Below are positions 1 through 54,544 of a DNA stretch of 64,000 bases, one piece after another. The position numbers and the translations under genes are program-made. Under the pieces are notes generated by a model. That model ran no database searches. It was not told where the DNA came from and saw only the letters and a list, made by a program, of their open reading frames with translations. The stretch comes from an uncultured virus (IMG/VR IMGVR_UViG_3300027732_001162). Lineage: Duplodnaviria; Heunggongvirae; Uroviricota; Caudoviricetes. The stretch lies in IMG/VR virus record IMGVR_UViG_3300027732_001162; one strand, 5' to 3'. Each line of letters starts with the position of its first letter. The first letter of the stretch is position 1.

Positions 1-166
1 CAAAATTAAGAAAAGCACCAGGAGTAGTGGCTGTAGGAATATCCTCAGGGCCAGAGATAATTTGAACATTGTGTCCTGCCTTTTTAAGTAAAGCAGGTAC
101 ATGAGTCTTCCACTGACCCGTGTACCTAGTCTCAACTGATTCCAAGTCAACTAAGAAGATTGTCAT
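1..166 (-). CDS. Partial (N-terminal) putative glycosyltransferase, runs off the window
   Basis: Manual translation from ATG at 166: MTIFLVDLESVETRYTGQWKTHVPALLKKAGHNVQIISGP...; the first strand plus the GHNVQII pattern resemble a GT-B glycosyltransferase N-terminus. Abuts the stop of the upstream gene. Confidence 0.55.
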   Translation of the reverse strand, partial: MTIFLVDLESVETRYTGQWKTHVPALLKKAGHNVQIISGPEDIPTATTPGAFLNF

Positions 167-436
167 TTAGTTGTTAAAACGTGGCTTGTTGAACGTATTT
201 TGTGGACGAGGGTTTTTGCCCAAGTACGGTTTACGTTCGCCAGTCCATGCCTTCTTAGGACGACGGCTGTTTTCAAAAGAGCGCCACACATGGCTTTCTC
301 TATTATACAAGTCTGCTTCGTTGTACGCAAGCAACTCGATTCTACAAAAATCCAACAATGCTTCAAGATCACCGAAGATCTTAACAATGTCAGGGCGGGT
401 TTCGAAATAATTAATTTCTTTGTAGTTTTTAGCCAT
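167..436 (-). CDS. Hypothetical protein, basic C-terminus
   Basis: 89-aa ORF tiling the operon, with an AAGG SD-like sequence upstream. Confidence 0.7.
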   Translation of the reverse strand: MAKNYKEINYFETRPDIVKIFGDLEALLDFCRIELLAYNEADLYNRESHVWRSFENSRRPKKAWTGERKPYLGKNPRPQNTFNKPRFNN

Positions 437-448
437 AAAGCCTTCTTA

Positions 449-844
449 TTAGTATTTGATAAAAGAACCATTTTCTCCGTCTTCGGAGACTTCAATCCAG
501 ACCTCACGGCCTGGATACTTATTGGAAATCATGCCATAAAGTTCGTCTGACATCATTTCGCAACTCTTATGATCTAGCGACAAAATATTTTGTGTGCTAG
601 AATACAGTTGTTCAAGCCATCGCTTGAATTGAATGAATTCCACATCTCTGTCATTGTGGGTGACACTAAGCCATACCCTGAAATGAAAAATATGGCGATG
701 AGGATTAGCCAAAAACGATACATCATATTGATCTCCTGTTGCTAGGTTAGGATCTGTGGCCGCGGCCGGGTAACAATGAATACCTTCTTTACGAAAGGTA
801 ACCCAGATCATTTTGTTAGGGCGGATGTCTTGTTTAATAATCAT
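449..844 (-). CDS. QueD-paralogue T-fold protein (DpdL-like)
   Basis: EGIHCYP...FLANPHRHIFHF (LxxxHRHxF in place of the QueD CxxxHGH), plus SCEMM and C-terminal EVSEDGENGS typical of the PTPS/QueD fold. Confidence 0.7.
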   Translation of the reverse strand: MIIKQDIRPNKMIWVTFRKEGIHCYPAAATDPNLATGDQYDVSFLANPHRHIFHFRVWLSVTHNDRDVEFIQFKRWLEQLYSSTQNILSLDHKSCEMMSDELYGMISNKYPGREVWIEVSEDGENGSFIKY

Positions 845-1356
845 GTTGTTTCAAATAGTAAGTTAAAATATGAATCTGCTCTATACATTTTTTTAGAAAC
901 TGTATTAGAACAAACACCCCAAGTTTTAATAATTTTATCTCTTAAAAAGGAATATGAATTTGCTTCCGAAGGAATATTAAGCGGGCATTCTCCGCTATTA
1001 CATGCAGAATATGGATAATCCAACTCTACTTTCTTAACATGCAATTTATAATTCTCAATTATCTTAGATAACTCTAGTAGTATAGCATCTTCTGGCATTT
1101 TAAAAAGTTCAGTTTGCCCACTTATTTTATTAATATGTGTACCGGAATACACATAAAAATCACGTTTAAAAGTCTCTTCAAGGAAGTTTATGTGTACTGG
1201 ATCTCCTAAAAAAACATGATTGAGATAAAACTTTTCAGAACAATTTTTTTGTCGACTGCGTACTGCCGAATACGGAGTCATTGCCTTACCAAGTTTTTTC
1301 CAATCAGGATTTCCTGATAGATCATTGTGCAAATACAGTATGAAACTTTTACTCAT
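841..1356 (-). CDS. Putative GIY-YIG/T5orf172-like protein
   Basis: Likely start at ATG 1356, overlapping the upstream TGA. ILYL...WKKLGKAMTP...RSRQ pattern; visibly AT-rich. Confidence 0.4.
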   Translation of the reverse strand: MSKSFILYLHNDLSGNPDWKKLGKAMTPYSAVRSRQKNCSEKFYLNHVFLGDPVHINFLEETFKRDFYVYSGTHINKISGQTELFKMPEDAILLELSKIIENYKLHVKKVELDYPYSACNSGECPLNIPSEANSYSFLRDKIIKTWGVCSNTVSKKMYRADSYFNLLFETT

Positions 1357-1868
1357 AATGTTGTATCTTGAGTGTACTGATCCCAATGAGTATACTTGTC
1401 TTTACTCATCAAGCTCTGTAAGTGATGTGTCCACACGCCTGGATTTGTAGCACCCCAAGTTCGGTCGTCCAGTTTAAGTGTGGCATTGTAATTGAGTTGA
1501 TTAATGTAAGGTAATTTGACACTAATCATAGGGACAAAGCGAGGATATTCGTTATATGCGGATTCCAATACACCTTCGATGTGTTCAACACCAAAGTCTA
1601 GTGATACCCAGTAGTCTGCTTTTAGACAGCCCATAATAACGTCATCCCACGCTTTATATTCTTCGTGGCTGATTGCCGTTGGATTAAAACTTTGGCTTGT
1701 ACCAAAGTAGATATGTTTTACATCAGCGTCTTTTGCTTTTGTAAGAATTTCTTCAATAGGTGGTGTACCTACAACAAACAATGTGAACATACCATGACAA
1801 ATAGTATGCTCGACCTCATAACCTGTAAAGTAAACGACGCCTTGTCGTTGTTCAGTGTTTAGTCCCAT
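1353..1868 (-). CDS. Hypothetical protein within the modification cluster
   Basis: 171-aa ORF coupled to both neighbours; motifs FTGYEVEHT and HIYFG, function not recognised. Confidence 0.75.
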   Translation of the reverse strand: MGLNTEQRQGVVYFTGYEVEHTICHGMFTLFVVGTPPIEEILTKAKDADVKHIYFGTSQSFNPTAISHEEYKAWDDVIMGCLKADYWVSLDFGVEHIEGVLESAYNEYPRFVPMISVKLPYINQLNYNATLKLDDRTWGATNPGVWTHHLQSLMSKDKYTHWDQYTQDTTL

Positions 1869-2758
1869 TTGATATAACCTCTGCTGTAATCGCTTGGACG
1901 ATCCCTACCATCCGCAAACGCTTGTTGCCATTCAGTGTTACGATTATAACACCGAGTCCAAAAACTATCAACCTCGAGATAACCGTTTTCAATCATCCAT
2001 ACTGCATCTTTCATACATTGGAAAAAGCCATCAGTACGTGGGCTTGGCCGAACTGTAGTACAGGCTTTCCAAAGTTGTGCCTGTGCTTCTTCTCTGCTTA
2101 CTGCTTTACCAATACCGTCGATAATAAGAGCATTGTTATTTAGGTTAATATCTATACCTAAAGAATATTTTCCACCCAAGTCAATAACTACGTCATAACT
2201 TTCGCTGGTACCAACCAATAGTTTATCACTCCACAGTTCAATATTGCTAGAACCTAGTACGTCAATTTGTTTTATCTTAGTACCAGTACTATAGGTATTC
2301 AATCTGTGAAAAGCCACCCAAGCAAGGAAACCACTGCCCAAAATCAATACTTTACCCTGCGACCGTTGTTTGATTTCGTGCCACGCTTGCTCTACCACAT
2401 TGATACCACATGCTACCGGTTCGATAATATAACGTGGATCAGCTTCTGGTACTACTACAAACTCTTTATCACGAACATTATAATAATCCGCATACGCAGG
2501 TTCACCACGTGTGGCAACATAGTCGCCTTCTTTAACACCGGTAACTAATGAACCAACTCGTGTAACTTGTCCTAATCCTTCATGCCCTTGCATACTGAGT
2601 GGCAATGGTCCAAAGTCGCCCATCATCATATCAATGTCACTGCGACATACACCAGTCATTACAGCTCTTACTTCAATTTGATCTGAAGCGGGTGCTGGTT
2701 TGTCGTACTCTACTTCTTCAAAGTAGCCTTGCCCTGTTGTTTGTAAACAGCGTGTCAT
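1859..2758 (-). CDS. Zn-dependent (MDR) alcohol/sugar dehydrogenase-like protein
   Basis: GVCRSD and GHEGLG catalytic Zn ligands, EPVAC, Rossmann-like ILGSGFLA; lacks the 4-Cys structural Zn loop. Confidence 0.85.
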   Translation of the reverse strand: MTRCLQTTGQGYFEEVEYDKPAPASDQIEVRAVMTGVCRSDIDMMMGDFGPLPLSMQGHEGLGQVTRVGSLVTGVKEGDYVATRGEPAYADYYNVRDKEFVVVPEADPRYIIEPVACGINVVEQAWHEIKQRSQGKVLILGSGFLAWVAFHRLNTYSTGTKIKQIDVLGSSNIELWSDKLLVGTSESYDVVIDLGGKYSLGIDINLNNNALIIDGIGKAVSREEAQAQLWKACTTVRPSPRTDGFFQCMKDAVWMIENGYLEVDSFWTRCYNRNTEWQQAFADGRDRPSDYSRGYIKWD

Positions 2759-3639
2759 AGTTTTTCTATTCTCTCATGGATCCAAGTATCAACGGCATAT
2801 TGCTGTAACCAGAAATCGGAATTGTCCATATTAGCAACAGCATCCACGATCATATTATGGTATGCCTCTTCCGGGCACCATCCCAATTCAAATCGTTCTA
2901 TCTTATTATCTGGCATGACAAACACAATGGAACTGTCTTCTTCGTCCTGACTACGCCAATTGGCCGCTAACCGCCATTTGTTACCAAAGTTAATCACGCA
3001 CATGTCATCAACGTTGTATGTACCAGTGGGATTGACAGTGCCGTACTCAGTGCTTTCGATATCCGTTAATTCCCAACATTGCATGGCAGTTTGCCCAGAT
3101 ACCGTTTCATGTTTCCAATCAGAATTCATAGCCACATACAAACTCAACAAGTGTGGCATTAGGTCTCTACTAACTCCGCCAAACGCCAACTTCTTAGTTG
3201 TAAACCAACTACCGGGACTGGGAATACAATTCTTTCTAATCCAACGTATTTTTACAGTCTTAGCTTGGCTGGCTAGAGTTTTTAATTCTTCTATGTTACT
3301 ACGCCACATATTGTTTTTAACCATTATGAAACGTGTTTGTTTAAATTCAGTTACAAGTTTAGTCCAAGTATCGCTAGTGGCAACTCCTGGTTTTTCAATA
3401 AACACAATTTTACTATGTGGAGCAACTCTGGCCGCAATTTCAAAGTGTGTAAAATTAGGAGTACAGATATGAGCAGTATCAAATAAGCCGTGTACTAGTA
3501 ATGCTTTATCAACAGAATCAAAGTCTGCTTTTTTACTAATATCTTGGTCAACAGTAACAACAGTGTGTCCAAGTTTTGTCAGTACATCTTTGTACAAGTT
3601 ACCAATACCCATGCCAATTACTAGACTACGCTTGCTCAT
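2755..3639 (-). CDS. Gfo/Idh/MocA-family oxidoreductase
   Basis: VIGMGIG, ICTPNFTH, FIEKP and GGVSRDLMPHLL motifs. Confidence 0.85.
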   Translation of the reverse strand: MSKRSLVIGMGIGNLYKDVLTKLGHTVVTVDQDISKKADFDSVDKALLVHGLFDTAHICTPNFTHFEIAARVAPHSKIVFIEKPGVATSDTWTKLVTEFKQTRFIMVKNNMWRSNIEELKTLASQAKTVKIRWIRKNCIPSPGSWFTTKKLAFGGVSRDLMPHLLSLYVAMNSDWKHETVSGQTAMQCWELTDIESTEYGTVNPTGTYNVDDMCVINFGNKWRLAANWRSQDEEDSSIVFVMPDNKIERFELGWCPEEAYHNMIVDAVANMDNSDFWLQQYAVDTWIHERIEKL

Positions 3640-3871
3640 TTTTCTTTTCCTCGTAGGATTTAAACAAACGGGTTACAGCTTCCATCTGTTCTTGGAATAT
3701 GTCTGGAGCACCTTCAGCCGCACGTTTCATATCCCAGTCGCTGGGATAATGACGTAAACAACTTCTTGCTTGATCTTTAATTGCTTTTGGAACTCGAGGA
3801 GTAGTTAAGATCTGTAATAAAAATCGTTGAGTCTGTACTACTGCTCGATATCGTTCGTCAGGTAATGTCAT
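3626..3871 (-). CDS. Small conserved protein (BPSL0761-like)
   Basis: MTLPDERYRAV...PRVPKAIKDQARSCLRHYP pattern; likely start 3871. Confidence 0.6.
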   Translation of the reverse strand: MTLPDERYRAVVQTQRFLLQILTTPRVPKAIKDQARSCLRHYPSDWDMKRAAEGAPDIFQEQMEAVTRLFKSYEEKKNEQA

Positions 3872-5555
3872 GATGTAATTGTGCTTCCAAGTCATCTAAT
3901 TTATCAGTGTCAAAATCTACTTCTTCTTCTAATTGTACACTATCTTCCTCTACTTCGTCAAAGAGAGTGGAAAACATAGTACTAGCGTTAACTGTTTTCT
4001 TACCAATGGCACCACGTGTGCCGGGAATAGCCATCCAAAATTTACTATATGCTTCGATAATCCCTTCAGCAATAGCTCTGTCGTCTGTACTAAAGATAGC
4101 ATCGACAACATCTTTAAAGTATGTACGATTGAATCTTTCATCTACCAGCATACTTGGGCATAGTCCAGCATCATATTGGCGATTAGCTTCTTGTACGCTG
4201 TTCAAATGTAACCAAACATTATGACCCATCATAATTGCGTAAGTAAAACTATCCCAGCTGGTCTTTCCTATCTTACCAATTTTGTTAACGTCATTTGGAC
4301 CGTAGATACAAATGTCTTTAACCTCTACCCCGTCCATCATTGGACTTGTAGTAAAACTGATAAAGTGTTTATCCTGAACAACTACATCTTGGAAGAGTCG
4401 TGTATCTTGGCTGTACTTTTTGTCATCAAGAGACGGCAACATTCGGTAGAGCCATTTTTCTCTGTCTTTGATTTCTGTTTGGACATAGATTTGACCGTTT
4501 GCTGTGGCAAGGAACGGTGAGGCGCAGTCAAAAGAGATGGTAAAGTTTTCATTATGATATTTCCTTATAGCTCGTTGTATGTCAGTTAATAACAATGCCC
4601 ACTCTAACTTAGAGGTGCCTAGGAAGTGCATCCAGTCTTGATGACCCTTTTCAAGGAGTCCATCGAACTTCAATGCCACTAATCTTCTTAAAACTAAATC
4701 CACATCACACATGTTTTGGCCACCCATGGCCCAACCATTGAACGGACGTTCATATTTTGTTGGATCGGAAAAGTCTTTCATTTGCTGATACCAATCTTCT
4801 GCCTGTGCGTGATTCTCGCCCTGTAATACATTTAAAAACTTACAAGCACCTGTACGATGTTTAATAAAGTACTCGTTATTGTATTTGGTTGCACTAACAG
4901 CTTGGTCGTAACTGGCAACTCCACTATTCTTAGCACCAACCGGACTGCGACCGACCCATGCTGGAATGTCAAGCACCATGCCATAGTCCATGAGAGCATC
5001 CATCCAAGTTAATACTTGTTCACGTTTCTTTTGTGCCGCATCCAGTTTGGCTTGATACACTTTAACATGATCAACTTTAGTATACTTGGGATTGCCATTT
5101 TTATCTGTTTTAGGATGACCAGTTGGATGCATTTGTGGCACTAGTTCAATGCCTTTTGCAACTGCTTCGGCCATACGTTGTGCAACTACTGGCCCAGTTG
5201 GATCATTCCATTCGCCTTCCCACACACCTTTACCAATCTGAAAACCTCCAGAGTCGCCTAGCACCCAACTGGTGCTACGGTCTCTATTACGAAACATATC
5301 TTCACTCGGGTCTGGTTTAGTCAAGTCCAAGTTAGCATGTCCAGCTGAATACAAACAATGGTCAAAGTAAAATGCCGCATTGGGATTCAAATAGTTCATA
5401 GCTTCAACGCCCATAGGGCCAAAGCTCGCAGGAATACGAGCAGGATCCACATAGTTGCTGTAACGCTGTTTACCTATGTACGTGCTGTAAAAACCACTTG
5501 TTGCTGGCAAGAAGTATGCGTAATCGCTCTGATGTGCTGTTAGGTTCTTATTCAA
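3858..5555 (-). CDS. Divergent tRNA/DNA-guanine transglycosylase-fold protein (DpdA-like)
   Basis: GDSGGFQ, VLDIP, VLQG, WAMGG, HFLG, SFDCASP and MGHN match the order of TGT barrel motifs; no CxCxxC Zn site. Confidence 0.75.
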   Translation of the reverse strand: MNKNLTAHQSDYAYFLPATSGFYSTYIGKQRYSNYVDPARIPASFGPMGVEAMNYLNPNAAFYFDHCLYSAGHANLDLTKPDPSEDMFRNRDRSTSWVLGDSGGFQIGKGVWEGEWNDPTGPVVAQRMAEAVAKGIELVPQMHPTGHPKTDKNGNPKYTKVDHVKVYQAKLDAAQKKREQVLTWMDALMDYGMVLDIPAWVGRSPVGAKNSGVASYDQAVSATKYNNEYFIKHRTGACKFLNVLQGENHAQAEDWYQQMKDFSDPTKYERPFNGWAMGGQNMCDVDLVLRRLVALKFDGLLEKGHQDWMHFLGTSKLEWALLLTDIQRAIRKYHNENFTISFDCASPFLATANGQIYVQTEIKDREKWLYRMLPSLDDKKYSQDTRLFQDVVVQDKHFISFTTSPMMDGVEVKDICIYGPNDVNKIGKIGKTSWDSFTYAIMMGHNVWLHLNSVQEANRQYDAGLCPSMLVDERFNRTYFKDVVDAIFSTDDRAIAEGIIEAYSKFWMAIPGTRGAIGKKTVNASTMFSTLFDEVEEDSVQLEEEVDFDTDKLDDLEAQLHHDIT

Positions 5556-5751
5556 TTTTGCCCCACTTTATTTTTAACCAAATTCTTTCATGAATATAAT
5601 AGTCTACACTTAAAAGAACATGTAATGCTGTGGCAAATCCTGTAGCACTAGTAATATCTTCTGTGAACAAATATGTCCAGACGATAGTGAACAACCATGC
5701 CGTTAACCGGTATGTAAGCATTCTCACCACTGTTCTTTTTTTAGTTTCCAT
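5548..5751 (-). CDS. DUF2061-like small membrane protein
   Basis: METKKRTVVRMLTYRL...YYIHERIWLKIKWG; two hydrophobic segments. Confidence 0.7.
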   Translation of the reverse strand: METKKRTVVRMLTYRLTAWLFTIVWTYLFTEDITSATGFATALHVLLSVDYYIHERIWLKIKWGKIE

Positions 5752-5752
5752 T

Positions 5753-5917
5753 CTATTTCCGTGATCGTACTTCATGCACGATCTGACCTATCTCATTTTT
5801 TGAACGAACTCGTTCTCTATCTAAATACTCTACACGAGTAGAAAGACGAATAACTTGTTCCTTCAAGAACTGTATCTGTCTTTCCAATTCGAGTATTTTT
5901 GGATCTACTTGGCTCAT
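5753..5917 (-). CDS. Small coiled-coil protein (54 aa, not in the ORF track)
   Basis: Manual translation MSQVDPKILELERQIQFLKEQVIRLSTRVEYLDRERVRSKNEIGQIVHEVRSRK; ATG overlaps the upstream TGA and the ORF fills the gap exactly. Confidence 0.65.
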   Translation of the reverse strand: MSQVDPKILELERQIQFLKEQVIRLSTRVEYLDRERVRSKNEIGQIVHEVRSRK

Positions 5918-6645
5918 TTAGCTTGTGCTGGCAAAATGTAATTGTATTCAGCCAATCCACTGTTTACTGTAATTTGCAATGCACCTGCATCACTGATACG
6001 CATTGTGCAGTCGCCGCTCAAGTTCAAAATGCTTTGTACTTGACTAACTGGCCATGCCCAAGTTTGTTTTAGTTTACCAGTAACTCCTGCTTGGAATACA
6101 AAATTACCAGAGTGTGTTGTTGCATCACCGAAACTAAAAATCAAGTTGTCATCCTTAGTTGTTACTTGGAATGTTGTTTCTTCAGTGTGCGCGGCCGCTT
6201 GATATTTCAACTTTTGAATACTAGCCACAGTGGGTTCGAATTCAATATTCCAACTTGCGCCTTTGAACTTGACAGTTTTCATTTGTTCATTGATAATTTC
6301 AGCATTCATAAAACGATAGTCGTTTTTAAAGTCGCCAAATGCATTTTCAAAATGCAGGCCTGTTGGGATATCTTCGCCGTTGCGTTGTTGTGTAACCACT
6401 TCAATGCTTGCGCCTTCTTTGTATTCGGGACACTTCAAATGCAAATCCAACTTGTTCAAGTTAGGCATACCAAACGTGCCTTCAAAATTACTGACGGGCG
6501 CATTTGTTTTGGCCTGCAAAATAACGCTACGGTCTTCTGCCATGCCTTCGATAACTGTTTCTTGGTCTGTGCTAGAAATTTTAACTAGCGGTAAAAATCC
6601 TAGACTATGCGTGTGTGCTACTAAGTCCTGTAAAATATCTTTCAT
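5914..6645 (-). CDS. Putative DNA sliding clamp (gp45/PCNA-like)
   Basis: 243 aa with an alternating beta pattern and C-terminal EYNYILPA; close to the polymerase, and a clamp loader is present in the window. Confidence 0.6.
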   Translation of the reverse strand: MKDILQDLVAHTHSLGFLPLVKISSTDQETVIEGMAEDRSVILQAKTNAPVSNFEGTFGMPNLNKLDLHLKCPEYKEGASIEVVTQQRNGEDIPTGLHFENAFGDFKNDYRFMNAEIINEQMKTVKFKGASWNIEFEPTVASIQKLKYQAAAHTEETTFQVTTKDDNLIFSFGDATTHSGNFVFQAGVTGKLKQTWAWPVSQVQSILNLSGDCTMRISDAGALQITVNSGLAEYNYILPAQAK

Positions 6646-6663
6646 ATGAATCTCCTTATGTGT

Positions 6664-6692
6664 ATTATATTTAGGTTTTTGTTTAAAGTCAA
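6664..6692 (-). promoter_or_regulatory. sigma70-type promoter TTGACT-N17-TATAAT with overlapping TAAATA
   Basis: Read directly; upstream of the putative clamp gene and its AAGGAG SD. Confidence 0.8.
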
Positions 6693-7462
6693 GAGTTTTT
6701 TCTTACTTTATTGTTGTATTGGATAGATGATTCTACCAATGTTGCTGGCATTCCAATTGTGTTAGACCACTTTAAAAATGCTTCAGTATCTTTGGGAAAA
6801 CATGCACCTCCCCATCCTCGCTGTCCATCTGGCCCTGGAACCAGTGTATGTCCTGCTCCAATGCGTGTATCCTGACCTACAATATGTCTTACAATATCGT
6901 AGTCCATTTTGTTGTTATCACAAATATCAGCTATTTGATTAAAGTAACTGGCCTTGAGAGCAAGAAAACAATTCACAGTATATTTGATCATGCATGCCTC
7001 TTCTTCACTGCATTGAAAAATCATTTTGCAATTAGGCAATGTAGTGGTGAATAATTCGTGCCAAAATCCTTCTGGATCTTCTCCGCCCACAATAATGTAT
7101 TTTTGATTAACAAAATCCGCCTCAGCACTGTTGGCCCGCAAAAATTCTGGACTGTAAACAATGCTGTGATTTTCGTAAACTTCTTTAAAGCCCTGCACGT
7201 TAGGAGGAGTCAATGTGCTTTTAATCATAACAGGCATGAAAAATGGAACATGATCTAACACATTGGCAATGTTGTTCGCATCACAAATTCCATTTTCAGT
7301 AGTTGGAGTAGATACACAAACAATAATGCCATCTGCATCTATATGGTCAGTGATTCGATTACTGTTATATTTTGGATCGATAATGACCAGTTCGTGTTTG
7401 GTTTGCAACGCACTGGCCACTGCCTTTCCAACAAATCCGTATCCTGCAATTATTATTTTCAT
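6689..7462 (-). CDS. UDP-glucose/GDP-mannose dehydrogenase family (lacks C-terminal UDP-binding domain)
   Basis: GYGFVG, VCVSTP, IKST, SPEFLR and catalytic GGACFPKD. Confidence 0.85.
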   Translation of the reverse strand: MKIIIAGYGFVGKAVASALQTKHELVIIDPKYNSNRITDHIDADGIIVCVSTPTTENGICDANNIANVLDHVPFFMPVMIKSTLTPPNVQGFKEVYENHSIVYSPEFLRANSAEADFVNQKYIIVGGEDPEGFWHELFTTTLPNCKMIFQCSEEEACMIKYTVNCFLALKASYFNQIADICDNNKMDYDIVRHIVGQDTRIGAGHTLVPGPDGQRGWGGACFPKDTEAFLKWSNTIGMPATLVESSIQYNNKVRKNS

Positions 7463-7463
7463 A

Positions 7464-10133
7464 TTAGAACTCAAATAAACTATTAAAGGTATTCTTTTCT
7501 TCAGTGCTACGAACGTCCCATTTCAATACGCCAATTAGGTTATCTAATTTGTTATCGATAATAGTTTGTTCCATTTCAGCGTGATCAAACGGCAAGTCTT
7601 TAAACCATTGTGGCAAACGTAATTCATCCACGGGATATGCCACTGATGTAAACCCCATGGGATTTTGTTTTAGTTTGCAAACAATAACTTTTTGACCGTC
7701 TGTGATGTTCATGCTGTATTTGTCACCGAACATACGTTTTAATGTATTCCAGTTAATGCTAGCACGAACATGTCCCGGCATGTTAGCTTTACCCGCATTG
7801 GCTTCTTTAGCTTGATATTCAGTAACTTTGTTGGCACGTTTGGGACTGCCTTTCTCCCAACCCGGCCTACTTTTAAATCTCAATCTAAATTCACTGATGT
7901 GTGCTAATACATCTTTTTCGGTGGTTCCTGTCAAGACCTTTTCAAGTACATCACTTAAAAAGTTCTGAATAAATTCCGGCGTATCACTACGCTTCAGATC
8001 CAAGCCCATGGCCTTGATCTTGCCAGGTTTACCATCTACGTCTGCCCGTTTGCCTTCCTTGTCATAGTACAGCACGGCATAACGCTTTTTAGTAATAAAC
8101 AAACTCTTACTACCAACGATTTCACGACCTGCTTTGATAACTTCACCGCGTGTTTTTGGCACGTGAAACGTATCCAACATAAACTGCGGAAAAGTTGTGT
8201 TAACTTCTTCGCTAATATTATCATATAGTTGAATTACATTTTCTTTGGTCCATTCGATGTTGCCAGAATCGATATCTTTCTTTAGTGTAGTGTATGCTGA
8301 AAAATAACAACTGTCAGTATCACCATAGATAATTGCTTTACCTCGGTAATCATAATCACCAGCAACAATTTCATTTACTTTGGCCGCCATGTGTTTAACA
8401 ATTTGCCGACCAGTCAATGTAGTTGACTGTCCAATACGCTTGTCAAAGAATCTACAACCGGGATTCAAAATAGCACCATACAAACTGTTCAAGTTAATCT
8501 TCTTAACCAACTGTCGTTTGTCCCAGTACTCTTCTTCAATTTTGTTGCCAGTCTTAATACAGTCTTTGAGTTTGGCCTGCATCTCTTTACGTTCAGCATA
8601 CCAACGCTTTAACAAGCCAGGAATAACGCCTTCCTTTTCATAAGTAAAGATAGTGCCGTTGGCACTGAGTACCCAGGGCTGGTGACTATCAAAGATCAAC
8701 TTGTATACTTCAGCCGCACTAATAACATCAGTTTGACCATTCTCCCAATCAATAGTAATGTCAGTACCAATCTCTTGATTCATTACTGCGGTATATTCCA
8801 GTGATCCAAATACACCTTCCCACGATGCCGCAAAGCTAGAACCTTTTGCCATCTTGTTATCAATGTACTCTTGAGTCATTGTTTGACGCAATTGTCCAAT
8901 AATAGTCTCCGGACCCATGTTCAGCGCACGAATAGCACTGGGATAAAGACTGTTGATGTCCAGCGAACCAATCCAGTCATGTATGCCTTCTTTGGGATAA
9001 GCAACATACGCACCTGCGGCCGCTGTGTTTTCTTCACGGTCGTCCATCTTAGTACGATTAGGCACTTGCATGTTACGTCTGTGTGCTTCGTTAATAATGG
9101 CCTGTTCAGTCACTGCAACAGCACCCATTGTGGTTTGTAACAGCACAGTATTTTCATGTGCCAGTGTGTTGGCAAGGTCAAGGAATTTCAGCTTCTTGTC
9201 TAAGCGATCAAGAAGCGCACAGTCTTGTCTGTTGTATTCAATGAACTTTTTAAAATCATGATTGTAAAGTTGATCCAGTGTGCCTTCGTATTGTGTTTTA
9301 CGTTCGCCCAGCTCGTATTCTGCAATAGCATCCAATCGATAACTGTGACGTTCTTCATATGTGTACTTGCGATACAGTTCAAGACTGTCCAAATGCACAC
9401 GCCCAACTAAATCATATGTAACTGAATCGCGACCAAACTTTTCATATTCACGACGTTTGGGATATTGATCAAACAAACAAAAACGTCTTGTGTCATCTTT
9501 GCTCAGTGCTTTGGTAACACGGTTAACTGTGTACGGAATATCATAACCTTCACTGTTCCAACCAGTTAAAATATCCGCTTCTTTGATCAGGTCTAAAAAC
9601 ACATCCAACATTTCCGCTTCTGTTTTAAACAACATGGTATTTGGAAACTCTTCGACCATTGCTTTGGCTTCTTCCATAGTAAGTGTCTTTGGAGGAACTG
9701 CCAAGCACACCATAGTATCCAACCATTGTAAGTGAACAGCGATAGCAGTGATAGGCATGAACGCATCATCTGGTGTGCTGTAGCCACGTTCTGGATCAAA
9801 GTCTACTTCGATGTCGAAAAACGCTACGTTTAGTTTGGGAGGGTCTGCATTTAGATAGTTTTCGCTCAGTGTTACAAAGATTGGATTGATATCACTTTCA
9901 AATAATTGCTTACCTGAATTGATTGCTTGTTCTTTGCGTAATTCTTTTGTGCTCTTAACTACAACTTTGCTTAGAGCGTCACCGTAAATTGAAAGATACT
10001 TTCCACGGGCGTCTTTATAGTAAAATGTGTGGCGTACAGGAATGTCTCTAAATTCCCTTTCACCTTTTTTGTTGCGTTCGACAACTTTAATAACATCGTT
10101 ATTACGGTCAAACCATGCGTCTACATAGCTCAT
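7464..10133 (-). CDS. Family B DNA polymerase
   Basis: Exonuclease motifs FDIEV, GWNSEGYD and YNRQD; polymerase motifs DINSLYPS, KINLNSLYG, YGDTDS and KKRY. Confidence 0.97.
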   Translation of the reverse strand: MSYVDAWFDRNNDVIKVVERNKKGEREFRDIPVRHTFYYKDARGKYLSIYGDALSKVVVKSTKELRKEQAINSGKQLFESDINPIFVTLSENYLNADPPKLNVAFFDIEVDFDPERGYSTPDDAFMPITAIAVHLQWLDTMVCLAVPPKTLTMEEAKAMVEEFPNTMLFKTEAEMLDVFLDLIKEADILTGWNSEGYDIPYTVNRVTKALSKDDTRRFCLFDQYPKRREYEKFGRDSVTYDLVGRVHLDSLELYRKYTYEERHSYRLDAIAEYELGERKTQYEGTLDQLYNHDFKKFIEYNRQDCALLDRLDKKLKFLDLANTLAHENTVLLQTTMGAVAVTEQAIINEAHRRNMQVPNRTKMDDREENTAAAGAYVAYPKEGIHDWIGSLDINSLYPSAIRALNMGPETIIGQLRQTMTQEYIDNKMAKGSSFAASWEGVFGSLEYTAVMNQEIGTDITIDWENGQTDVISAAEVYKLIFDSHQPWVLSANGTIFTYEKEGVIPGLLKRWYAERKEMQAKLKDCIKTGNKIEEEYWDKRQLVKKINLNSLYGAILNPGCRFFDKRIGQSTTLTGRQIVKHMAAKVNEIVAGDYDYRGKAIIYGDTDSCYFSAYTTLKKDIDSGNIEWTKENVIQLYDNISEEVNTTFPQFMLDTFHVPKTRGEVIKAGREIVGSKSLFITKKRYAVLYYDKEGKRADVDGKPGKIKAMGLDLKRSDTPEFIQNFLSDVLEKVLTGTTEKDVLAHISEFRLRFKSRPGWEKGSPKRANKVTEYQAKEANAGKANMPGHVRASINWNTLKRMFGDKYSMNITDGQKVIVCKLKQNPMGFTSVAYPVDELRLPQWFKDLPFDHAEMEQTIIDNKLDNLIGVLKWDVRSTEEKNTFNSLFEF

Positions 10134-10142
10134 TTATTCTCC

Positions 10143-10190
10143 ATATGCAATTTACGGCTTGCAAATACCTACTTGCGGTTTATGGCCCGC
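10143..10190 (-). promoter_or_regulatory. Tandem hairpin leader of the polymerase gene (putative translational operator)
   Basis: GCGG-GCCATAAA-CCGC and TGCAA-GCCGTAAA-TTGCA directly before the GGAG SD. Confidence 0.55.
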
Positions 10191-10211
10191 CGACCTTTCG
10201 TACAATATTTA

Positions 10212-10469
10212 TTAGATACGTTTTGTAATATCTAAAATAGCTTCAATTTCTGCCCAATCTTCGTTATGCGCAGTCCAGTCGCCCTTGTGTGCAATTTTGA
10301 TAGCACGATTGATAACGCTGGGTTTTACATTGAGTTCTTCTGCCACTGCCTTAACTGTTTCTTTCAAGCCTTCTGATAAATCTTCAATTTCGCGAAGCAC
10401 TGTAGAACCTTCACTAATCAATCTTTCTAGTTTTGCCTTTTCTTCTGCACCGTATGAACGTCCTGACAT
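10212..10469 (-). CDS. dsDNA-binding protein, T4 DsbA/GapR-like
   Basis: LREIEDLSEGLKETVKAVAEELNVKPSVINRAIKIAHK helical pattern. Confidence 0.6.
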   Translation of the reverse strand: MSGRSYGAEEKAKLERLISEGSTVLREIEDLSEGLKETVKAVAEELNVKPSVINRAIKIAHKGDWTAHNEDWAEIEAILDITKRI

Positions 10470-10493
10470 GTAAGTCTCCTTAACTATAGCCTA

Positions 10494-10522
10494 ATTATAT
10501 ACTAATTATCTGTGTAATGCAA
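10494..10522 (-). promoter_or_regulatory. sigma70-type promoter TTGCAT-N17-TATAAT
   Basis: Read directly; followed by an AAGGAG SD. Confidence 0.75.
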
Positions 10523-10535
10523 CCTTTAGAGGTGG

Positions 10536-10561
10536 AAATGGCAGAAATTAATCTGCCATTT
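10536..10561. terminator. Intergenic hairpin, probable terminator
   Basis: AAATGGCAGA-N6-TCTGCCATTT just downstream of the 899-aa gene. Confidence 0.65.
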
Positions 10562-10568
10562 TTATTAA

Positions 10569-13268
10569 TTAATACTTGGCGTTTAACCAGCCGTCACCAG
10601 TGGGTTTACGCTTGGTAGTATCTGCGGCTTTGGCCGCGTCACCGGATCCCATACCAGTTGGTGTGTAGTTGGCTTGTTTGAATAATTCGTCTACCTGAGT
10701 TTTTAATTCATTAGTGATATCATCAACTGGATACATGTTAACCAATTCTGTAATTAGTTTTTGTAATTTAGCACCATTGGCTTGAATCTTGCTTGTTTTT
10801 TCAGCGGTGGCTTTCTTTTCAGCGGCTTCTTTTTCTTTTGCTTCAGCTTCTCTTTTTAGTCTAGCTTCAGTTTCTTCTGGTTTTTCAACTCGTTGACCAT
10901 CGCTGTTACCGTTACCTTCAGGACCGTTGGTGGTATCTTGATTTACAAAGTAAGCACCGGCCACAAGCCCGGCCATAACCAACCACCATTTATAATTCCA
11001 ACCAAATTTAGCAACTGCTCCAATTGCACCTAGTGCGACCACAGTCTTTGGAAATTTTCCAGCCATTCTTGCCATTAAAGGAGTTTTAACTTCAGCGGCC
11101 GCTAACTTAGTTAGTAGCTTGTTTTTTGTAACTTGTGTAAACGTACCATTAGCTTCTGCTCTAAACCAATTGCCGGCTTTGTCTTTAACATATTTTACAC
11201 CTTGTATTTCAGCAGATGCAACTTGTTTACCAGCATTGAATGTTACTGCTCCTGGCCCAGGTGCTGGAGCAGGTGCTGGTGCTGGTGCTGGAGCAGGTGC
11301 TGGAGCAGGTGCTGGTGCTGGTGCTGGAGGTGCGGGTTTACCTAACAATTTCCAATCTTTTTCCGCTTGTTTTGTTAATGTTACTACATCTGTCTGTTGG
11401 CCAGTGGTTGTATTTTTCCAGACCTTGCCTTCTGTTCCTGGAATCATCTTCCAATTACCGGGATCTACAAATCTAGGCCCAAGTCGAGTACTGGCTGCGG
11501 CAATAACAACTTCGTCTGCTTGTTTTCCAATTATTTTTTCCAATGCAAACAATGCCTTACCTTCAGCAGTAGCGATACCAAATCTTGCCCCAAATCGACC
11601 TAACGCACCTAAAGGAAGACCAGCTTCATCTAGCTGTGATAATTTGTCACGCAAGTAAGACATGCGTTCTGTATCAGTCATGCTTGAATAGATTATGGAT
11701 TCATTAGCGACAGGAGCCTGAGAAGTAATACCCAGTATCTTTGCCACATACTCGCCGGCTTGATTAAGATCTCTCGGCATTTTGGTTTTTAATTCTTCTA
11801 AGTTCTTAACACCAACTTTGGCAAAGAATTCCTTCATAGCGGCCTGTTGTTCAGCACCACCCTCTGCAACTTCAGCTGGATCAGTTTTTGAACTCATAGT
11901 TGCTGATGTTTTGGTAATAGCTGTGCCTTGTTGTGCAACAGCATTTGCATCACCAGGAGTCAATACGCCAGTTGGTTCTGCACCAGCCGCTTTTTGTACT
12001 TTTTTAACTGCATCTGCATCAGCAGGTTTTTGTTTGGACATCGCATCGCCAACGTATTTTGCATTGTGCGGAGTACGTATGTATGCATCGCTTCCTGCTT
12101 GTACTGCCATTGCCCCGCCAACTTTCAATGCGCCAGCAACTAGTCCGCCACCTCCGGGAATAATAGCAATAGATCCAGCGGCTTGTCCGCCGTAGTACCA
12201 AACAGGACTACGTTTCTTTGCGGCTTCGCTGGCTTGCAATTGTTTTAATAATTCATCACCGTATTTTGTACCTTTGTATGTGGATATCATTTTGGCAATA
12301 GCATTGTCGCCCCAACCAAATGTCAATCCTGCCAACACACCTCTGCCCAATGCTTCAACATCTTCTGTAATGATGTATTCAACAGGGTTTCCATTGGCAT
12401 CATAGTAAATGTGTACTGCACTGATAGTGTCGTTTTCAGTTTCAATAAGATATACTTGTTCTTTTAAATATTGTTTTGATTCATTAACTGGGGTAGCTAC
12501 TGGGTTTAGTATGGCTTTCAATTCAGTTATAGCTGACTGTATAGCTGTGACTAACACAGTTCTATATTTTTTGTATTCTTGATATTTGGTAAGTAACTCT
12601 TGTACTTCTTTGTCGTCGGCGTATTTTGCATCCTTAGCAAGTATGTCAATTATTCCGTATAATTTTTTAGCTTGGTCAACGGTGATACTTTCTTTCAAAG
12701 GAGTAAATGTATAACCAAAGCCTTCTGTTAATGCCTGAGCAAGTTTGCCCTGTGGAGCAGACTCATCATATCGAACAGCTTTGCTTTTTAATGCTTGAGT
12801 AATAATGTCTTCTGCATCATCGATTAGGTCATACTTGGTACGATTTACGTTGCTGGCTTTGAATGCTTCACCCTCGTCCTTGCCCATCAATCCAAAAAAT
12901 GCACTGGTCTTTGCAATGTCAGGAACTAGTCCGTCTTTTTCCATCTGTTCAACTTCAGCTTTGTACGGACCAAACCAAGCATAATCGCCCTTGGCATCTA
13001 CCCACTTACCGTTGACTGGATCAAATAATCCTGGATAGTCGTTTCTTATTGCCAATTGCCCAAGCTGTTTTCTACGTACTCCGGCATCTTGTATGTTTGC
13101 TATGGCTTCTAGTTCTTTTCTGCGAACTCGCTCCATTAAAGCAATATATGATTCTTTTAATAATTGTAAATCAGCAGTTAACACTTCATCGATCATGGTG
13201 GCACTTTCCAACAACACTTGTCGTTGGTCAATAGTATCTAATTTATTTAAAAGTGCTTTCAAATCCAT
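10569..13268 (-). CDS. Large putative internal virion/ejection protein with Pro-Ala hinge and membrane segments
   Basis: MDLKALLNKLD N-terminus, several (L/V/A)xES sites, Gly-rich GVLAGLTFGWGD segment, (PA)n linker and hydrophobic WWLVMAGLVAGAYFV. Confidence 0.55.
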   Translation of the reverse strand: MDLKALLNKLDTIDQRQVLLESATMIDEVLTADLQLLKESYIALMERVRRKELEAIANIQDAGVRRKQLGQLAIRNDYPGLFDPVNGKWVDAKGDYAWFGPYKAEVEQMEKDGLVPDIAKTSAFFGLMGKDEGEAFKASNVNRTKYDLIDDAEDIITQALKSKAVRYDESAPQGKLAQALTEGFGYTFTPLKESITVDQAKKLYGIIDILAKDAKYADDKEVQELLTKYQEYKKYRTVLVTAIQSAITELKAILNPVATPVNESKQYLKEQVYLIETENDTISAVHIYYDANGNPVEYIITEDVEALGRGVLAGLTFGWGDNAIAKMISTYKGTKYGDELLKQLQASEAAKKRSPVWYYGGQAAGSIAIIPGGGGLVAGALKVGGAMAVQAGSDAYIRTPHNAKYVGDAMSKQKPADADAVKKVQKAAGAEPTGVLTPGDANAVAQQGTAITKTSATMSSKTDPAEVAEGGAEQQAAMKEFFAKVGVKNLEELKTKMPRDLNQAGEYVAKILGITSQAPVANESIIYSSMTDTERMSYLRDKLSQLDEAGLPLGALGRFGARFGIATAEGKALFALEKIIGKQADEVVIAAASTRLGPRFVDPGNWKMIPGTEGKVWKNTTTGQQTDVVTLTKQAEKDWKLLGKPAPPAPAPAPAPAPAPAPAPAPAPAPGPGAVTFNAGKQVASAEIQGVKYVKDKAGNWFRAEANGTFTQVTKNKLLTKLAAAEVKTPLMARMAGKFPKTVVALGAIGAVAKFGWNYKWWLVMAGLVAGAYFVNQDTTNGPEGNGNSDGQRVEKPEETEARLKREAEAKEKEAAEKKATAEKTSKIQANGAKLQKLITELVNMYPVDDITNELKTQVDELFKQANYTPTGMGSGDAAKAADTTKRKPTGDGWLNAKY
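11259..11336 (-). repeat. Hexamer tandem repeat encoding (Pro-Ala)n
   Basis: Repeated ggtgct/ggagca units on the plus strand; encodes PAPPAPAPAP... Confidence 0.9.
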
Positions 13269-13269
13269 T

Positions 13270-14603: not shown

Positions 14604-14607
14604 GGTA

Positions 14608-53874: not shown

Positions 53875-54057
53875 TTACCAGTGTCGTACGACACCTAAGA
53901 TTATAAAAAAGTTTGTAAGTACATATATTAACACAATCGCAGTTCTAATGCAAGCAATTCGGTCCGCTTCCACGTCCGAACTGCCCGATTTTTCACCCAG
54001 AGCTTTTGCCCACAGTCTCCAGTAATGCTTAACCTTCGTACGTAGCCGAATTAGCAC
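53875..54057 (-). CDS. Small membrane protein (start uncertain)
   Basis: WRLWAKALGEK...ADRIACIRT plus a C-terminal TM segment. Confidence 0.55.
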   Translation of the reverse strand: MLIRLRTKVKHYWRLWAKALGEKSGSSDVEADRIACIRTAIVLIYVLTNFFIILGVVRHW

Positions 54058-54544
54058 CGTGTTCAAATACCTCAACTGATTTGATCCTGACTGTTGGATT
54101 GATTGGGTAATGCATATCGCCACTAGCCAAAAGCTCAGCCATTTTGTCATATGCCATTTTGGCAAACATTTCACAGCCTACACCTGGAACAATTCTTAGA
54201 TCGCACAGTGCGCCGCGCTCGTGTGGCAGTTTGCTTAGATGATCTTTACTTTCAATATCCACCATCTCATTCATATGTTTGAAAAATTCCAGCATAGGAT
54301 CGTCTTCAGCAACCACTAGTGTGTGATCGAACATAGAATCGGCCCAGGCCTTAAATTCTTTTAAGCCACCAAAGTCCATGCACCAGTTTTTGTCATCTAG
54401 AGTATCACATTCAAATATTAATTTGATACCAATTGAATAACCATGTATTGTTGAGCAATGGCTGTGTGTGGCACGCCATTGTCTAAAACAGCAGGATAAG
54501 CCTCTGTCGTTACCGTAAGTTTTTGTTGAGTAAAATTTTGCCAT
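54029..54544 (-). CDS. queD: 6-carboxy-5,6,7,8-tetrahydropterin synthase (QueD/PTPS)
   Basis: CCFRQW...HCSTIHGY, MDFGGLK, FDHT, GCEMFA and EVFEHGANSA. Confidence 0.88.
   Translation of the reverse strand: MAKFYSTKTYGNDRGLSCCFRQWRATHSHCSTIHGYSIGIKLIFECDTLDDKNWCMDFGGLKEFKAWADSMFDHTLVVAEDDPMLEFFKHMNEMVDIESKDHLSKLPHERGALCDLRIVPGVGCEMFAKMAYDKMAELLASGDMHYPINPTVRIKSVEVFEHGANSATYEG

What the first reader, a model, noticed from the sequence alone, without database searches (positions are those of the whole stretch)
1..7462. Candidate novel 7-deazaguanine DNA hypermodification operon combining transglycosylase, DpdL-like protein, oxidoreductases and glycosyltransferase
Seen: one coupled minus-strand run holds a TGT-fold protein, an LxxxHRHxF T-fold protein, a Zn dehydrogenase, a Gfo/Idh/MocA oxidoreductase, an unknown 171-aa protein, a GT-like gene and a UDP-Glc dehydrogenase, next to the clamp and polymerase. 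A canonical QueD lies at 54029. Established: phage DpdA proteins exchange G in DNA for 7-deazaguanines made via FolE/QueD/QueE. As I recall, DpdL (LxxxHRHxF) is linked to unsubstituted 7-deazaguanine. Inference: sugar and redox enzymes are not part of the Dpd pathways I know, so the product may be a reduced and/or glycosylated deazaguanine used against restriction.
Basis: partly seen in the sequence, partly recalled or inferred. Interest (0 to 1): 0.85.

Follow-up and report, generated by a model that had tools for sequence, protein, structure and literature searches.

The report
Sugar-tailoring enzymes in phage deazaguanine module
A fragment of a giant uncultured phage carries relatives of the genes that swap guanine in DNA for 7-deazaguanine, together with a sugar-transferring enzyme and two dehydrogenases that likely reshape the sugar, which predicts a sugar-bearing purine in DNA that I found measured in no paper and that could be tested in the cultured phage PA5oct.

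Summary
The genes are real. The 565-aa protein is a homologue of PA5oct DpdA (E 1e-66; listed as DpdA3 by Cui 2023). The 131-aa protein is DpdL. The contig-cut gene is a full GT4-like glycosyltransferase. Identical contigs continue into folE and queE, and QueC was not found.

This GT family hits 23 of 50,697 phage records; 18 of them, from six cultured lineages, also encode DpdL. So the GT belongs to the module.

The Gfo and zinc-dehydrogenase genes are an optional pair: always together, in 12 of 39 relatives from the least biased set. A second GT clade has galE instead (59 of 62) and never the pair (0 of 62). They likely tailor the sugar rather than reduce the base. UDP-glucose dehydrogenase is only loosely linked. 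The 171-aa protein is tentatively a cysteine-less QueE-like fold.

Best reading (0.55): a glycosylated 7-deazaguanine at a subset of G's. It is unmeasured; dDG was measured only in a GT-less DpdA clade (phiST). The scan noted this module on at least 24 other genomes before. New variant of a known kind.

The parts
1..166 (-). 5' end (55 codons) of a 365-aa GT-B, GT4-like retaining glycosyltransferase ('type A'); the rest lies beyond the contig end
   Evidence: Complete ORF in identical contigs L004:15390-16487 and L006; model pLDDT 85; full-length match to GT4 enzymes, Z 25.0 (sucrose-phosphate synthase 6kih) and 23.8 (BshA 6n1x); homologues between or beside dpdA/dpdL in cultured phages
167..436 (-). 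89-aa ORF of unknown function, conserved in this phage clade only
   Evidence: no Pfam or PHROG hit
449..844 (-). DpdL, QueD paralogue (LxxxHRHxF), proposed CDG decarboxylase
   Evidence: 54% to PA5oct QCG76199.1 and ACP17, 34% to phiST CGPG_00067; named DpdL in Cui 2023 DS1; motif L..R in 186 of 189 distinct DpdL proteins
841..1356 (-). T5orf172/GIY-YIG-like protein, likely a mobile passenger
   Evidence: Atlas features 0.93 and TM 0.56-0.62 to T5orf172 clusters; in 5 of 80 related loci, 4 of them identical to the window
1353..1868 (-). 171-aa protein, tentatively a QueE-like partial barrel without the CxxxCxxC motif; frequent but not universal member of the module
   Evidence: AlphaFold pLDDT 95.8; three QueE structures at Z 6.0-6.2 over 121-127 residues, tied with a 93-residue STAS match at Z 6.6; profile test against QueE negative; 0 of 133 rows carry CxxxCxxC; homologues in PA5oct, ACP17, BCSR5
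1859..2758 (-). Zn-dependent MDR dehydrogenase of polyol-dehydrogenase type (C38, H59, E60, E113-P; no structural-zinc lobe); likely sugar tailoring
   Evidence: motifs kept in 42 of 43 distinct homologues, lost only in Paride; never without Gfo
2755..3639 (-). Gfo/Idh/MocA NAD-dependent oxidoreductase; likely sugar tailoring
   Evidence: PF01408; best PDB sequence hit DgpA 7xr9, E 2.3e-8; motifs kept in 47 of 48; DpdA nearby in 57 of 57 and GT in 45 of 45 informative cases
3626..3871 (-). small ORF of unknown function, clade-specific
3858..5555 (-). Long-form DpdA DNA transglycosylase (PA5oct type)
   Evidence: 32.6%, E 1e-66 to PA5oct QCG76197.1, listed as DpdA3; TGT motifs D101-SGGFQ, D196, Q245-G, H310-FLG, D343; family profile hits TGT structures at E 2.6e-4 and DpdA 7ui4 at E 0.03
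5548..5775 (-). DUF2061 small membrane protein, sporadic passenger
5914..6645 (-). Sliding clamp (context, not part of the module)
   Evidence: 34% to the Phosso gene annotated as sliding clamp
6689..7462 (-). UDP-glucose dehydrogenase-like; loosely associated possible donor-sugar enzyme
   Evidence: in 10 of 39, 47 of 109 and 25 of 62 loci of the three counts; position varies
54029..54544 (-). Canonical QueD (CPH4 synthase), precursor pathway
   Evidence: PF01242 8.9e-16, phrog_2389; CSTIHGY motif

Best explanation
This phage likely makes 7-deazaguanine, likely swaps it into a subset of guanines in its DNA with DpdA, and is predicted to add a sugar to it with the GT4-like enzyme, while the Gfo/MDR pair likely reshapes that sugar. 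Steps: (1) GTP to CDG by FolE, QueD and QueE. The genes are shown; the chemistry is established. (2) No QueC was found, so the route stops at CDG; DpdL would decarboxylate it to 7-deazaguanine (Cui 2023's proposal, not reconstituted). (3) The long DpdA would exchange G for the base after replication, probably in a sequence motif (inferred from PA5oct restriction resistance). (4) The GT would transfer a hexose or uronic acid from an NDP-sugar. My first guess for the site is the exocyclic N2 amine (about 40% if glycosylation is real; huimycin precedent); a C7/C8 carbon link or an ester on CDG are the alternatives. (5) Gfo and MDR would oxidise and re-reduce one sugar hydroxyl (an epimerisation), an option that the other GT clade fills with GalE. 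(6) The 171-aa QueE-like protein would bind the base or hand it on without radical chemistry. The purpose is inferred: to block restriction enzymes and modification-dependent defences that recognise plain dDG.
For: The GT family hits 23 of 50,697 phage records (union); 18 of the 23 are among the 29 DpdL records, from six cultured lineages. The GT lies between dpdA and dpdL in PA5oct/Paride and ACP17, and directly beside dpdA or dpdL in BUDD, BCSR5, Phosso and BUCT-ZZ01. The one of the other five that I examined (PhiXhv-12) has the GT next to Gat-QueC, a PIG-L deacetylase and a Gfo, with a DpdA elsewhere. Environmental loci, distinct GTs with DpdA in the locus: DpdL in 107 of 109 (type A) and 59 of 62 (type B). 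Sugar-nucleotide neighbours change with GT type: galE in 59 of 62 type B and 7 of 109 type A; Gfo+MDR in 0 of 62 type B; GT plus PIG-L deacetylase in BCSR5 and PhiXhv-12. The GT has a complete GT4-like fold and invariant R221/K226/E281. QueC was found in 0 of 3 near-complete relatives and not in Paride; the control rang in 13 of 14 genomes. [quoted passage not shown] An N2-GlcNAc 7-deazapurine is assigned to a GT in huimycin (PMC7439116, passages).
Against: No nucleoside from any DpdL+GT phage has been measured in the papers I could search. dDG was measured only in phiST and two relatives; phiST lacks the GT and its DpdA sits in a separate clade. 7-Deazaguanine has no obvious sugar acceptor at C7. 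DpdL activity was not reconstituted in E. coli. The GT fold is closer to small-molecule GT4s (Z 25.0, 23.8) than to phage enzymes (HY126 GT Z 19.5, T4 alpha-glucosyltransferase Z 18.2), so DNA as the acceptor is not shown. Most environmental counts come from one family of large phages with conserved gene order, so they are not independent. GT absence maps to one DpdA clade, that is, one event. The Gfo/MDR copies in Paride have lost their NAD and Zn motifs, which an enzymatic role does not explain. Gfo/MDR and GalE are not strictly exclusive (both in 4 of 109).
Confidence: 0.55

Rival explanations
1. The DNA carries plain dDG (or dCDG), as in phiST. The GT glycosylates something else: a free deazapurine or pterin (storage, signalling, detoxification), or a protein of the pathway.
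For: The only measured DpdL product is dDG. The best structural neighbours of the GT are small-molecule GT4s, among them BshA and a tetrahydrobiopterin glucosyltransferase (Z 19.4). Huimycin is a free metabolite.
Against: Every GT-bearing record examined also has a DpdA, often as the adjacent gene; a metabolite-only role would not need it.
Confidence: 0.22
2. The sugar goes onto the free base (or nucleotide) first and DpdA inserts the glycosylated base; or DpdL is not a decarboxylase here, and DpdL with the 171-aa protein builds a different C7 handle that takes the sugar.
For: HuiG is proposed to act on a free base. DpdL chemistry is unproven. The 171-aa protein resembles QueE and often sits beside the GT.
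Against: TGT-type pockets read N2/O6/N1 of the base and would not easily take an N2 sugar (own knowledge). The 171-aa protein was not detected in Phosso, BUCT-ZZ01 or PhiXhv-12, and only at E 0.05 in BUDD, so it cannot be required for the acceptor.
Confidence: 0.13
3. One reading: Gfo and MDR reduce the C7 carboxyl or aldehyde to a hydroxymethyl group, which the GT then glycosylates, as with T4 hydroxymethylcytosine.
For: It would supply a proper sugar acceptor; both enzymes keep their catalytic motifs in this clade and sit between dpdA and the GT.
Against: GT, DpdL and DpdA occur without the pair in 27 of 39 relatives, in all 62 type-B loci and in five cultured lineages. NAD dehydrogenases do not reduce an unactivated carboxylate (own knowledge). 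The best PDB sequence match of the Gfo is DgpA, recalled as a glycoside oxidase.
Confidence: 0.06
4. The sugar genes are hitch-hikers in a conserved replication region and serve cell-surface or virion glycosylation unrelated to deazaguanines.
For: These giant phages carry many auxiliary genes; UGD, DUF2061 and the GIY-YIG-like gene come and go.
Against: The GT stays beside dpdA/dpdL in unrelated genome layouts and with two DpdA clades, and the family was found in only 23 of 50,697 phage records.
Confidence: 0.04

Closest known systems
DpdL/DpdA3 dDG system of Cellulophaga phage phiST (Cui et al. 2023, PMC10516641)
   Same: FolE, QueD, QueE and DpdL (LxxxHRHxF), no QueC, and a TGT-like DpdA. 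PA5oct, the closest cultured relative, is in that paper's table as DpdA3+DpdL.
   Different: phiST has a short DpdA (259 aa, DN motif) in a separate clade with no pairwise similarity to the window protein (phmmer E 2.1), replaces all G, and has no GT, no 171-aa protein and no Gfo/MDR by my searches. The main text has 0 occurrences of words starting 'glycosyl'.
Pseudomonas jumbo phages PA5oct / Paride (Wroclawvirus)
   Same: pol-clamp-dpdA-GT-dpdL...queE, and a Gfo-MDR-171-aa block in the same order about 27 kb away; DNA resists G-containing restriction sites.
   Different: In Paride, Gfo and MDR have lost catalytic motifs and a short epimerase-like gene lies near the GT; the nucleoside is not identified in the passages I saw.
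T4 glucosyl-hydroxymethylcytosine (alpha/beta-glucosyltransferases)
   Same: Two-tier logic, a modified base and then a GT-B sugar cap; T4 alpha-glucosyltransferase appears among the structural matches (Z 18.2).
   Different: The acceptor would be a purine inserted by transglycosylation, with no hydroxymethyl handle; the GT shows no sequence similarity to AGT/BGT in the PDB searches.
Huimycin / dapiramicin (N2-glycosyl 7-deazapurine metabolites; PMC7439116)
   Same: FolE/QueD/QueE plus a GT give a sugar on the 2-amino group of a 7-deazapurine.
   Different: Free antibiotic-type metabolites of actinomycetes; use QueC and an O-methyltransferase; no DpdA and no DNA.

Membership tests
DpdA (DNA-guanine transglycosylase) | TGT-fold barrel with the catalytic Asp pair and guanine-pocket motifs | tested here: met
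   D101-SGGFQ, D196, Q245-G246, H310-FLG, D343 conserved; 12-row family profile hits TGTs at E 2.6e-4 and DpdA 7ui4 at E 0.03. Sequence evidence only; no structural model of this protein was obtained.
DpdA (DNA-guanine transglycosylase) | Encoded with deazaguanine precursor genes in a phage | tested here: met
   queD in the window; folE and queE in identical contigs
DpdA (DNA-guanine transglycosylase) | Acts on DNA, not tRNA | not testable with these tools
   Indirect only: PA5oct DNA resists restriction (PMC12191111)
DpdA3 subfamily (Cui 2023) | Homology to a protein listed as DpdA3 | tested here: met
   PA5oct QCG76197.1, E 1e-66
DpdA3 subfamily (Cui 2023) | Groups with the type member phiST CGPG_00065 | tested here: not met
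   The window and PA5oct proteins form an 11-row clade (100/99) apart from the 5-row phiST clade (100/99) in a 23-row tree; no one-clade test was run; phmmer to phiST E 2.1
DpdA3 subfamily (Cui 2023) | Complete replacement of G | not testable with these tools
   The PA5oct digest was read as a GA/GG motif, which suggests partial replacement
DpdL | QueD paralogue with LxxxHRHxF in place of CxxxHGH | tested here: met
DpdL | Genome has DpdA, FolE, QueD and QueE but no QueC | tested here: met
   the window's contig is 31% complete, so absence rests on 3 near-complete relatives and Paride
DpdL | CDG decarboxylase activity | not testable with these tools
   Unproven also in Cui 2023
dDG system of phiST type | Final nucleoside is dDG | not testable with these tools
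   Needs LC-MS/MS
GT-B / GT4-like retaining glycosyltransferase | Two Rossmann domains with conserved R, K and E donor-binding residues | tested here: met
DNA-base glycosyltransferase (T4 AGT/BGT kind) | Closest structural or sequence kin are DNA glucosyltransferases | tested here: inconclusive
   AGT Z 18.2 and HY126 GT Z 19.5 rank below small-molecule GT4s
QueE (radical SAM CDG synthase), for the 171-aa protein | CxxxCxxC cluster motif | tested here: not met
   0 of 133 rows
QueE (radical SAM CDG synthase), for the 171-aa protein | QueE partial-barrel fold | tested here: inconclusive
   Z 6.0-6.2 over 121-127 residues to three QueE structures; Foldseek no hit at E<=0.001; hhalign probability 2.9%

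The most novel reading that the evidence does not exclude
A large, abundant family of aquatic jumbo phages and cultured phages such as PA5oct carry the first glycosylated purine in DNA, and they vary the sugar: one GT clade uses GalE, another uses a Gfo/MDR pair to make a rare epimer, others deacetylate GlcNAc to glucosamine. This gives a diversifying glycan coat on 7-deazaguanine, with a cysteine-less QueE copy as a new base-binding component.
Probability: 0.3. Interest if true: 0.92.

Novelty: new variant of a known kind. Interest (0 to 1): 0.72.

Why it matters
Known sugar hypermodifications of phage DNA sit on pyrimidines (own knowledge), and none of the eight deazaguanine derivatives in Cui 2023 carries a sugar. 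A glycosylated deazaguanine would be a new class of DNA base, in a very common phage group (7,618 homologues among 7,999 scored candidates). It is directly testable in cultured phages: PA5oct and Paride, whose modified G is inferred but not identified, and BUCT-ZZ01. It may explain why DpdL+DpdA of ACP17 gave no dDG in E. coli: the GT between the two genes and the 171-aa homologue upstream were not among the genes expressed. The enzymes would also be tools for site-specific DNA labelling at G.

Tried and rejected
Direct Pfam, PHROG and PDB sequence searches with the 565-aa protein, the 171-aa protein and the window-type GT gave nothing useful; assignments came from homologues and profiles. No structural model of the DpdA was obtained, so its fold rests on sequence profiles. 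The profile-profile test of the 171-aa family against QueE was negative, Foldseek gave no hit at E<=0.001, and Atlas leads were under 0.9. No fusion of the 171-aa protein to DpdL, GT, DpdA, QueE, Gfo or MDR was found among 150 representatives. Complex prediction of GT with the 171-aa protein: no answer, score 0.00, not evidence either way. Search for a Tet/JBP oxygenase as an alternative source of GT acceptor: 0 of 5 genomes, but the control also rang nowhere, so it shows nothing. The whole-record searches for GT and the 171-aa protein in five GT-less phages had no positive control in the same call, and the same 171-aa search missed the BUDD candidate, so these absences are soft. A strict Gfo/MDR-versus-GalE swap was rejected: 4 of 109 type-A loci have both, and many have neither. 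The scan of bacterial genomes with the window-type GT gave 4 short contigs in MAGs, three with phage-like neighbours and one too short to tell; I did not find or test the bacterial islands named in earlier notes. In one search five single-sequence profiles were mis-built; those genes were read from clusters and the profiles were rebuilt. Literature: searches listed no paper describing a glycosylated 7-deazaguanine in DNA or a GT in dpd clusters; subscription papers are not covered, and I read only the five papers named in the full report.

Full report
Observation. The window is the first 64 kb of a linear 118,042-nt phage contig, about 31% complete; close relatives are 329-383 kb. From DUF2061 down to the glycosyltransferase (GT) the genes abut or overlap (-14 to +12 nt); the UDP-glucose dehydrogenase (UGD) and clamp are set off by 43 and 138 nt. 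Only 55 codons of the GT are in the window. Contigs L004, L005 and L006 are 100% identical to window 1-15555 and L007 is 99.99% identical; L004 and L006 carry the whole GT (365 and 364 aa) and go on to a phosphoribosyltransferase-like gene, folE and queE. The two GT alleles are identical in the first third and 80% identical overall, so I cannot say which one follows in this genome. QueD lies at 54029. QueC was found neither in the contig nor in 3 of 3 near-complete relatives, a fragment and Paride, while the control rang in 13 of 14 genomes.

The known core. The 565-aa protein has no Pfam, PHROG or direct PDB hit. It matches 13 phage records, best the Wroclawviruses at 32.6% and E 1e-66. The PA5oct match is QCG76197.1, which Cui et al. 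2023 list as DpdA3 (PMC10516641, supplement sheet DS1). TGT motifs are conserved, and a 12-row profile hits TGT structures and a DpdA structure. The 131-aa protein matches 29 records, among them the named DpdL proteins of PA5oct, ACP17 and phiST. Cui et al. measured dDG in phiST and two relatives, proposed DpdL as the decarboxylase and could not reconstitute it in E. coli (sections 15 and 16). A 23-row tree splits the proteins called DpdA3 in two: a short form (phiST, Ahp1, RHph_I1_18, plus D479 and Bakedbeans) and a long form that holds the window, PA5oct, Phosso and Vibrio 2.275.O; DpdA2 proteins form a further group (midpoint root for drawing only, no one-clade test). So the measured dDG comes from a different DpdA clade than the window's.

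The GT belongs to the module. Three tblastn searches with divergent GTs hit 22, 7 and 18 records, 23 in union, of 50,697. Of the 23, 18 are also DpdL records: 11 Wroclawvirus, 2 ACP17, Phosso, BUDD, X1, BCSR5 and BUCT-ZZ01. The order is dpdA-GT-dpdL in PA5oct/Paride and ACP17, GT-dpdA-dpdL in BUDD, dpdL...GT-dpdA in BCSR5, dpdL-GT in Phosso (dpdA far away) and GT2-dpdA-dpdL-GT in BUCT-ZZ01. Of the other five records I examined one, PhiXhv-12: Gat-QueC, PIG-L deacetylase, GT, Gfo, with a DpdA elsewhere. Eleven of the 29 DpdL records have no GT hit. Five of these were searched whole with a GT profile, 0 of 5 (no control in that call), and all five have the short DpdA; MA9V-3, Roos and the other Cellulophaga records were not examined. 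GT absence is therefore one clade, not many events. Vibrio 2.275.O has the long DpdA with QueC/QueF annotations and is in neither the DpdL nor the GT lists. The GT model (pLDDT 85) is a full GT-B of GT4 type; small-molecule enzymes rank first (Z 25.0, rmsd 3.2, 317 aligned; BshA Z 23.8), phage HY126 GT (Z 19.5) and T4 alpha-glucosyltransferase (Z 18.2) lower. The fold does not tell the acceptor.

Environmental counts. I counted only loci in which both the DpdA and the GT ORF were complete. Of 80 loci seeded by the window DpdA, 39 qualified: DpdL 39, 171-aa 39, Gfo 38, MDR 38, UGD 36, GalE 0. Of 80 loci seeded by the BUCT-ZZ01 GT (21-24% identical to the window type, 'type B'), 75 qualified: DpdL 72, 171-aa 69, GalE 71, UGD 31, Gfo 0, MDR 0. 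Of 73 loci seeded by the Phosso GT, the least biased type-A set, 39 distinct GTs qualified: DpdL 37, 171-aa 30, Gfo 12, MDR 12, GalE 6, UGD 10. Pooled by distinct GT: type A, n=109, Gfo+MDR 81 (inflated by the seeds), never one without the other, GalE 7, both 4; type B, n=62, GalE 59, Gfo/MDR 0. Seen from Gfo (80 loci, 59 distinct proteins): DpdA in 57 of 57, MDR in 54 of 54 and GT in 45 of 45 cases with enough flank. Nearly all these loci belong to one family of large phages with conserved order behind pol and clamp, so they show retention, not independent assembly; the cultured lineages give the independent cases.

The two oxidoreductases. They are optional, so they cannot make the group that takes the sugar. 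Among cultured phages, full-length homologues occur only in Wroclawviruses, as a Gfo-MDR-171-aa block about 27 kb from dpdA. The Gfo's best PDB sequence match is DgpA (E 2.3e-8; its role as a C-glycoside 3-oxidase is recalled). The MDR has C38/H59/E60 and an E-P motif and lacks the structural-zinc lobe, as in polyol dehydrogenases (sequence; family pattern recalled). Catalytic motifs are kept in 47 of 48 Gfo and 42 of 43 MDR proteins; the exception is Paride, which I cannot explain. Together with the GalE, deacetylase and DegT-like genes that sit beside the GT in other clades, this points to sugar tailoring, most simply an oxidise-then-reduce epimerisation. This step is inference. UGD moves about and is often missing; it may supply UDP-glucuronate but is not core.

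The 171-aa protein. It has 518 representatives at 50% clustering and is folded with confidence. Its only near-full-length matches at the top are three QueE structures (Z 6.0-6.2, rmsd 3.3-4.1, 121-127 aligned), tied with a shorter STAS match. Z under 8 is weak, and the profile test failed. It has no cluster cysteines but keeps G-x-E-x-E near the N-terminus, where QueE has its QGE motif. It was found in PA5oct, ACP17 and BCSR5, weakly in BUDD, and not in Phosso, BUCT-ZZ01 or PhiXhv-12. I read it as a non-radical base-binding helper; this is a lead.

Mechanism and odds. GTP to CDG (established enzymes, genes shown); CDG to 7-deazaguanine by DpdL (published proposal); exchange into a subset of G by the long DpdA (inferred; PA5oct DNA resists five enzymes, read as a GA/GG motif, PMC12191111); sugar added in DNA by the GT (inferred from co-occurrence), first guess at N2 by analogy with huimycin (PMC7439116); sugar identity set by Gfo/MDR, GalE or a deacetylase (inferred). 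I put 0.55 on this, 0.22 on plain dDG with the GT acting on a metabolite or protein, 0.13 on glycosylation before insertion or on another C7 handle, 0.06 on a reduced base, and 0.04 on hitch-hiking.

Literature seen. PMC10516641: abstract, passages, sections 15-16, supplement part 1 of 19 and search passages; the unread supplement parts may bear on DpdA3 membership. PMC12191111: passages; its extended data were not seen and could hold more on PA5oct. PMC10761892 (Paride): passages, 0 occurrences of 'deazaguan'. PMC7439116: passages. bioRxiv 10.64898/2026.04.15.718813: passages, 0 occurrences of 'phage' or 'dpdl'; supplements not seen. All other papers: search listings only. Searches listed no report of a glycosylated 7-deazaguanine in DNA.

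Earlier notes of this scan. 25 findings in at least 24 other genomes describe GT+DpdL+DpdA, two of the eight shown with a 'stripped-down QueE', and one describes the version with two dehydrogenases. They agree with my reading, which I had noted before looking; they are not independent evidence.

Verdict. Real, and a new variant of the Dpd systems. The DpdA/DpdL core is known; the GT, the clade-specific sugar-tailoring genes and the QueE-like protein are not described in the papers I could search. The product is a prediction that one LC-MS run on PA5oct DNA could settle. Interest 0.72.

Noticed in passing
L004:15390-16487 vs L006:15390-16484: Contigs identical for more than 15.5 kb switch to 80%-identical alleles inside the GT gene (after about residue 128) and differ in gene content downstream: a likely recombination point in the GT. 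The window's contig and L005 both end at the same base in this gene.
   Followed up: partly
L093, L095, L096, L103 (phiST, Ahp1, D479, Bakedbeans): The short, GT-less DpdA clade has nucleotide kinase and MazG/dUTPase-like neighbours. With full G replacement in phiST this hints at modification at the nucleotide-pool level rather than after replication.
   Followed up: no
L099:7007-8775 (Paride): Gfo and MDR homologues keep their order with the 171-aa gene but have lost NAD- and Zn-binding motifs; possibly pseudo-enzymes or a structural role.
   Followed up: partly
L091, L092, L184-L186: DpdA2-type clusters add a PIG-L deacetylase-like and a PAPS-reductase-like gene beside the GT (Pfam hits in BUDD and BCSR5, by eye in L184-L186), suggesting GlcNAc transfer, deacetylation and a further step.
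   Followed up: no
L098:4819-8905 (PhiXhv-12): The same GT family with Gat-QueC, a deacetylase and an unrelated Gfo and no DpdL hit: a candidate glycosylated archaeosine-type base; GNAT-like genes lie upstream.
   Followed up: partly
L097:4388-8545 (BUCT-ZZ01): Two different GT4-like genes flank dpdA-dpdL: a possible disaccharide.
   Followed up: no
window 58712-63949; G000:C1 82065-103417: Four tandem radical SAM/SPASM genes in the window, and a long run of further radical SAM-like and oxygenase-like ORFs later in the contig (the latter judged by eye).
   Followed up: no
window 37791-51614: A 4,607-aa ORF, not examined.
   Followed up: no
window 52844-53866: UvdE UV-damage endonuclease (PF03851 1e-31) next to queD.
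   Followed up: no
G000:C1 about 113000-118042: A dense array of tRNA-like sequences at the far end of the contig, seen in translations; not run through ARAGORN.
   Followed up: no
window 841-1356: T5orf172/GIY-YIG-like gene inserted between the 171-aa gene and dpdL; 93% identical in L076, whose DpdA is only 80% identical, which suggests recent spread.
   Followed up: partly
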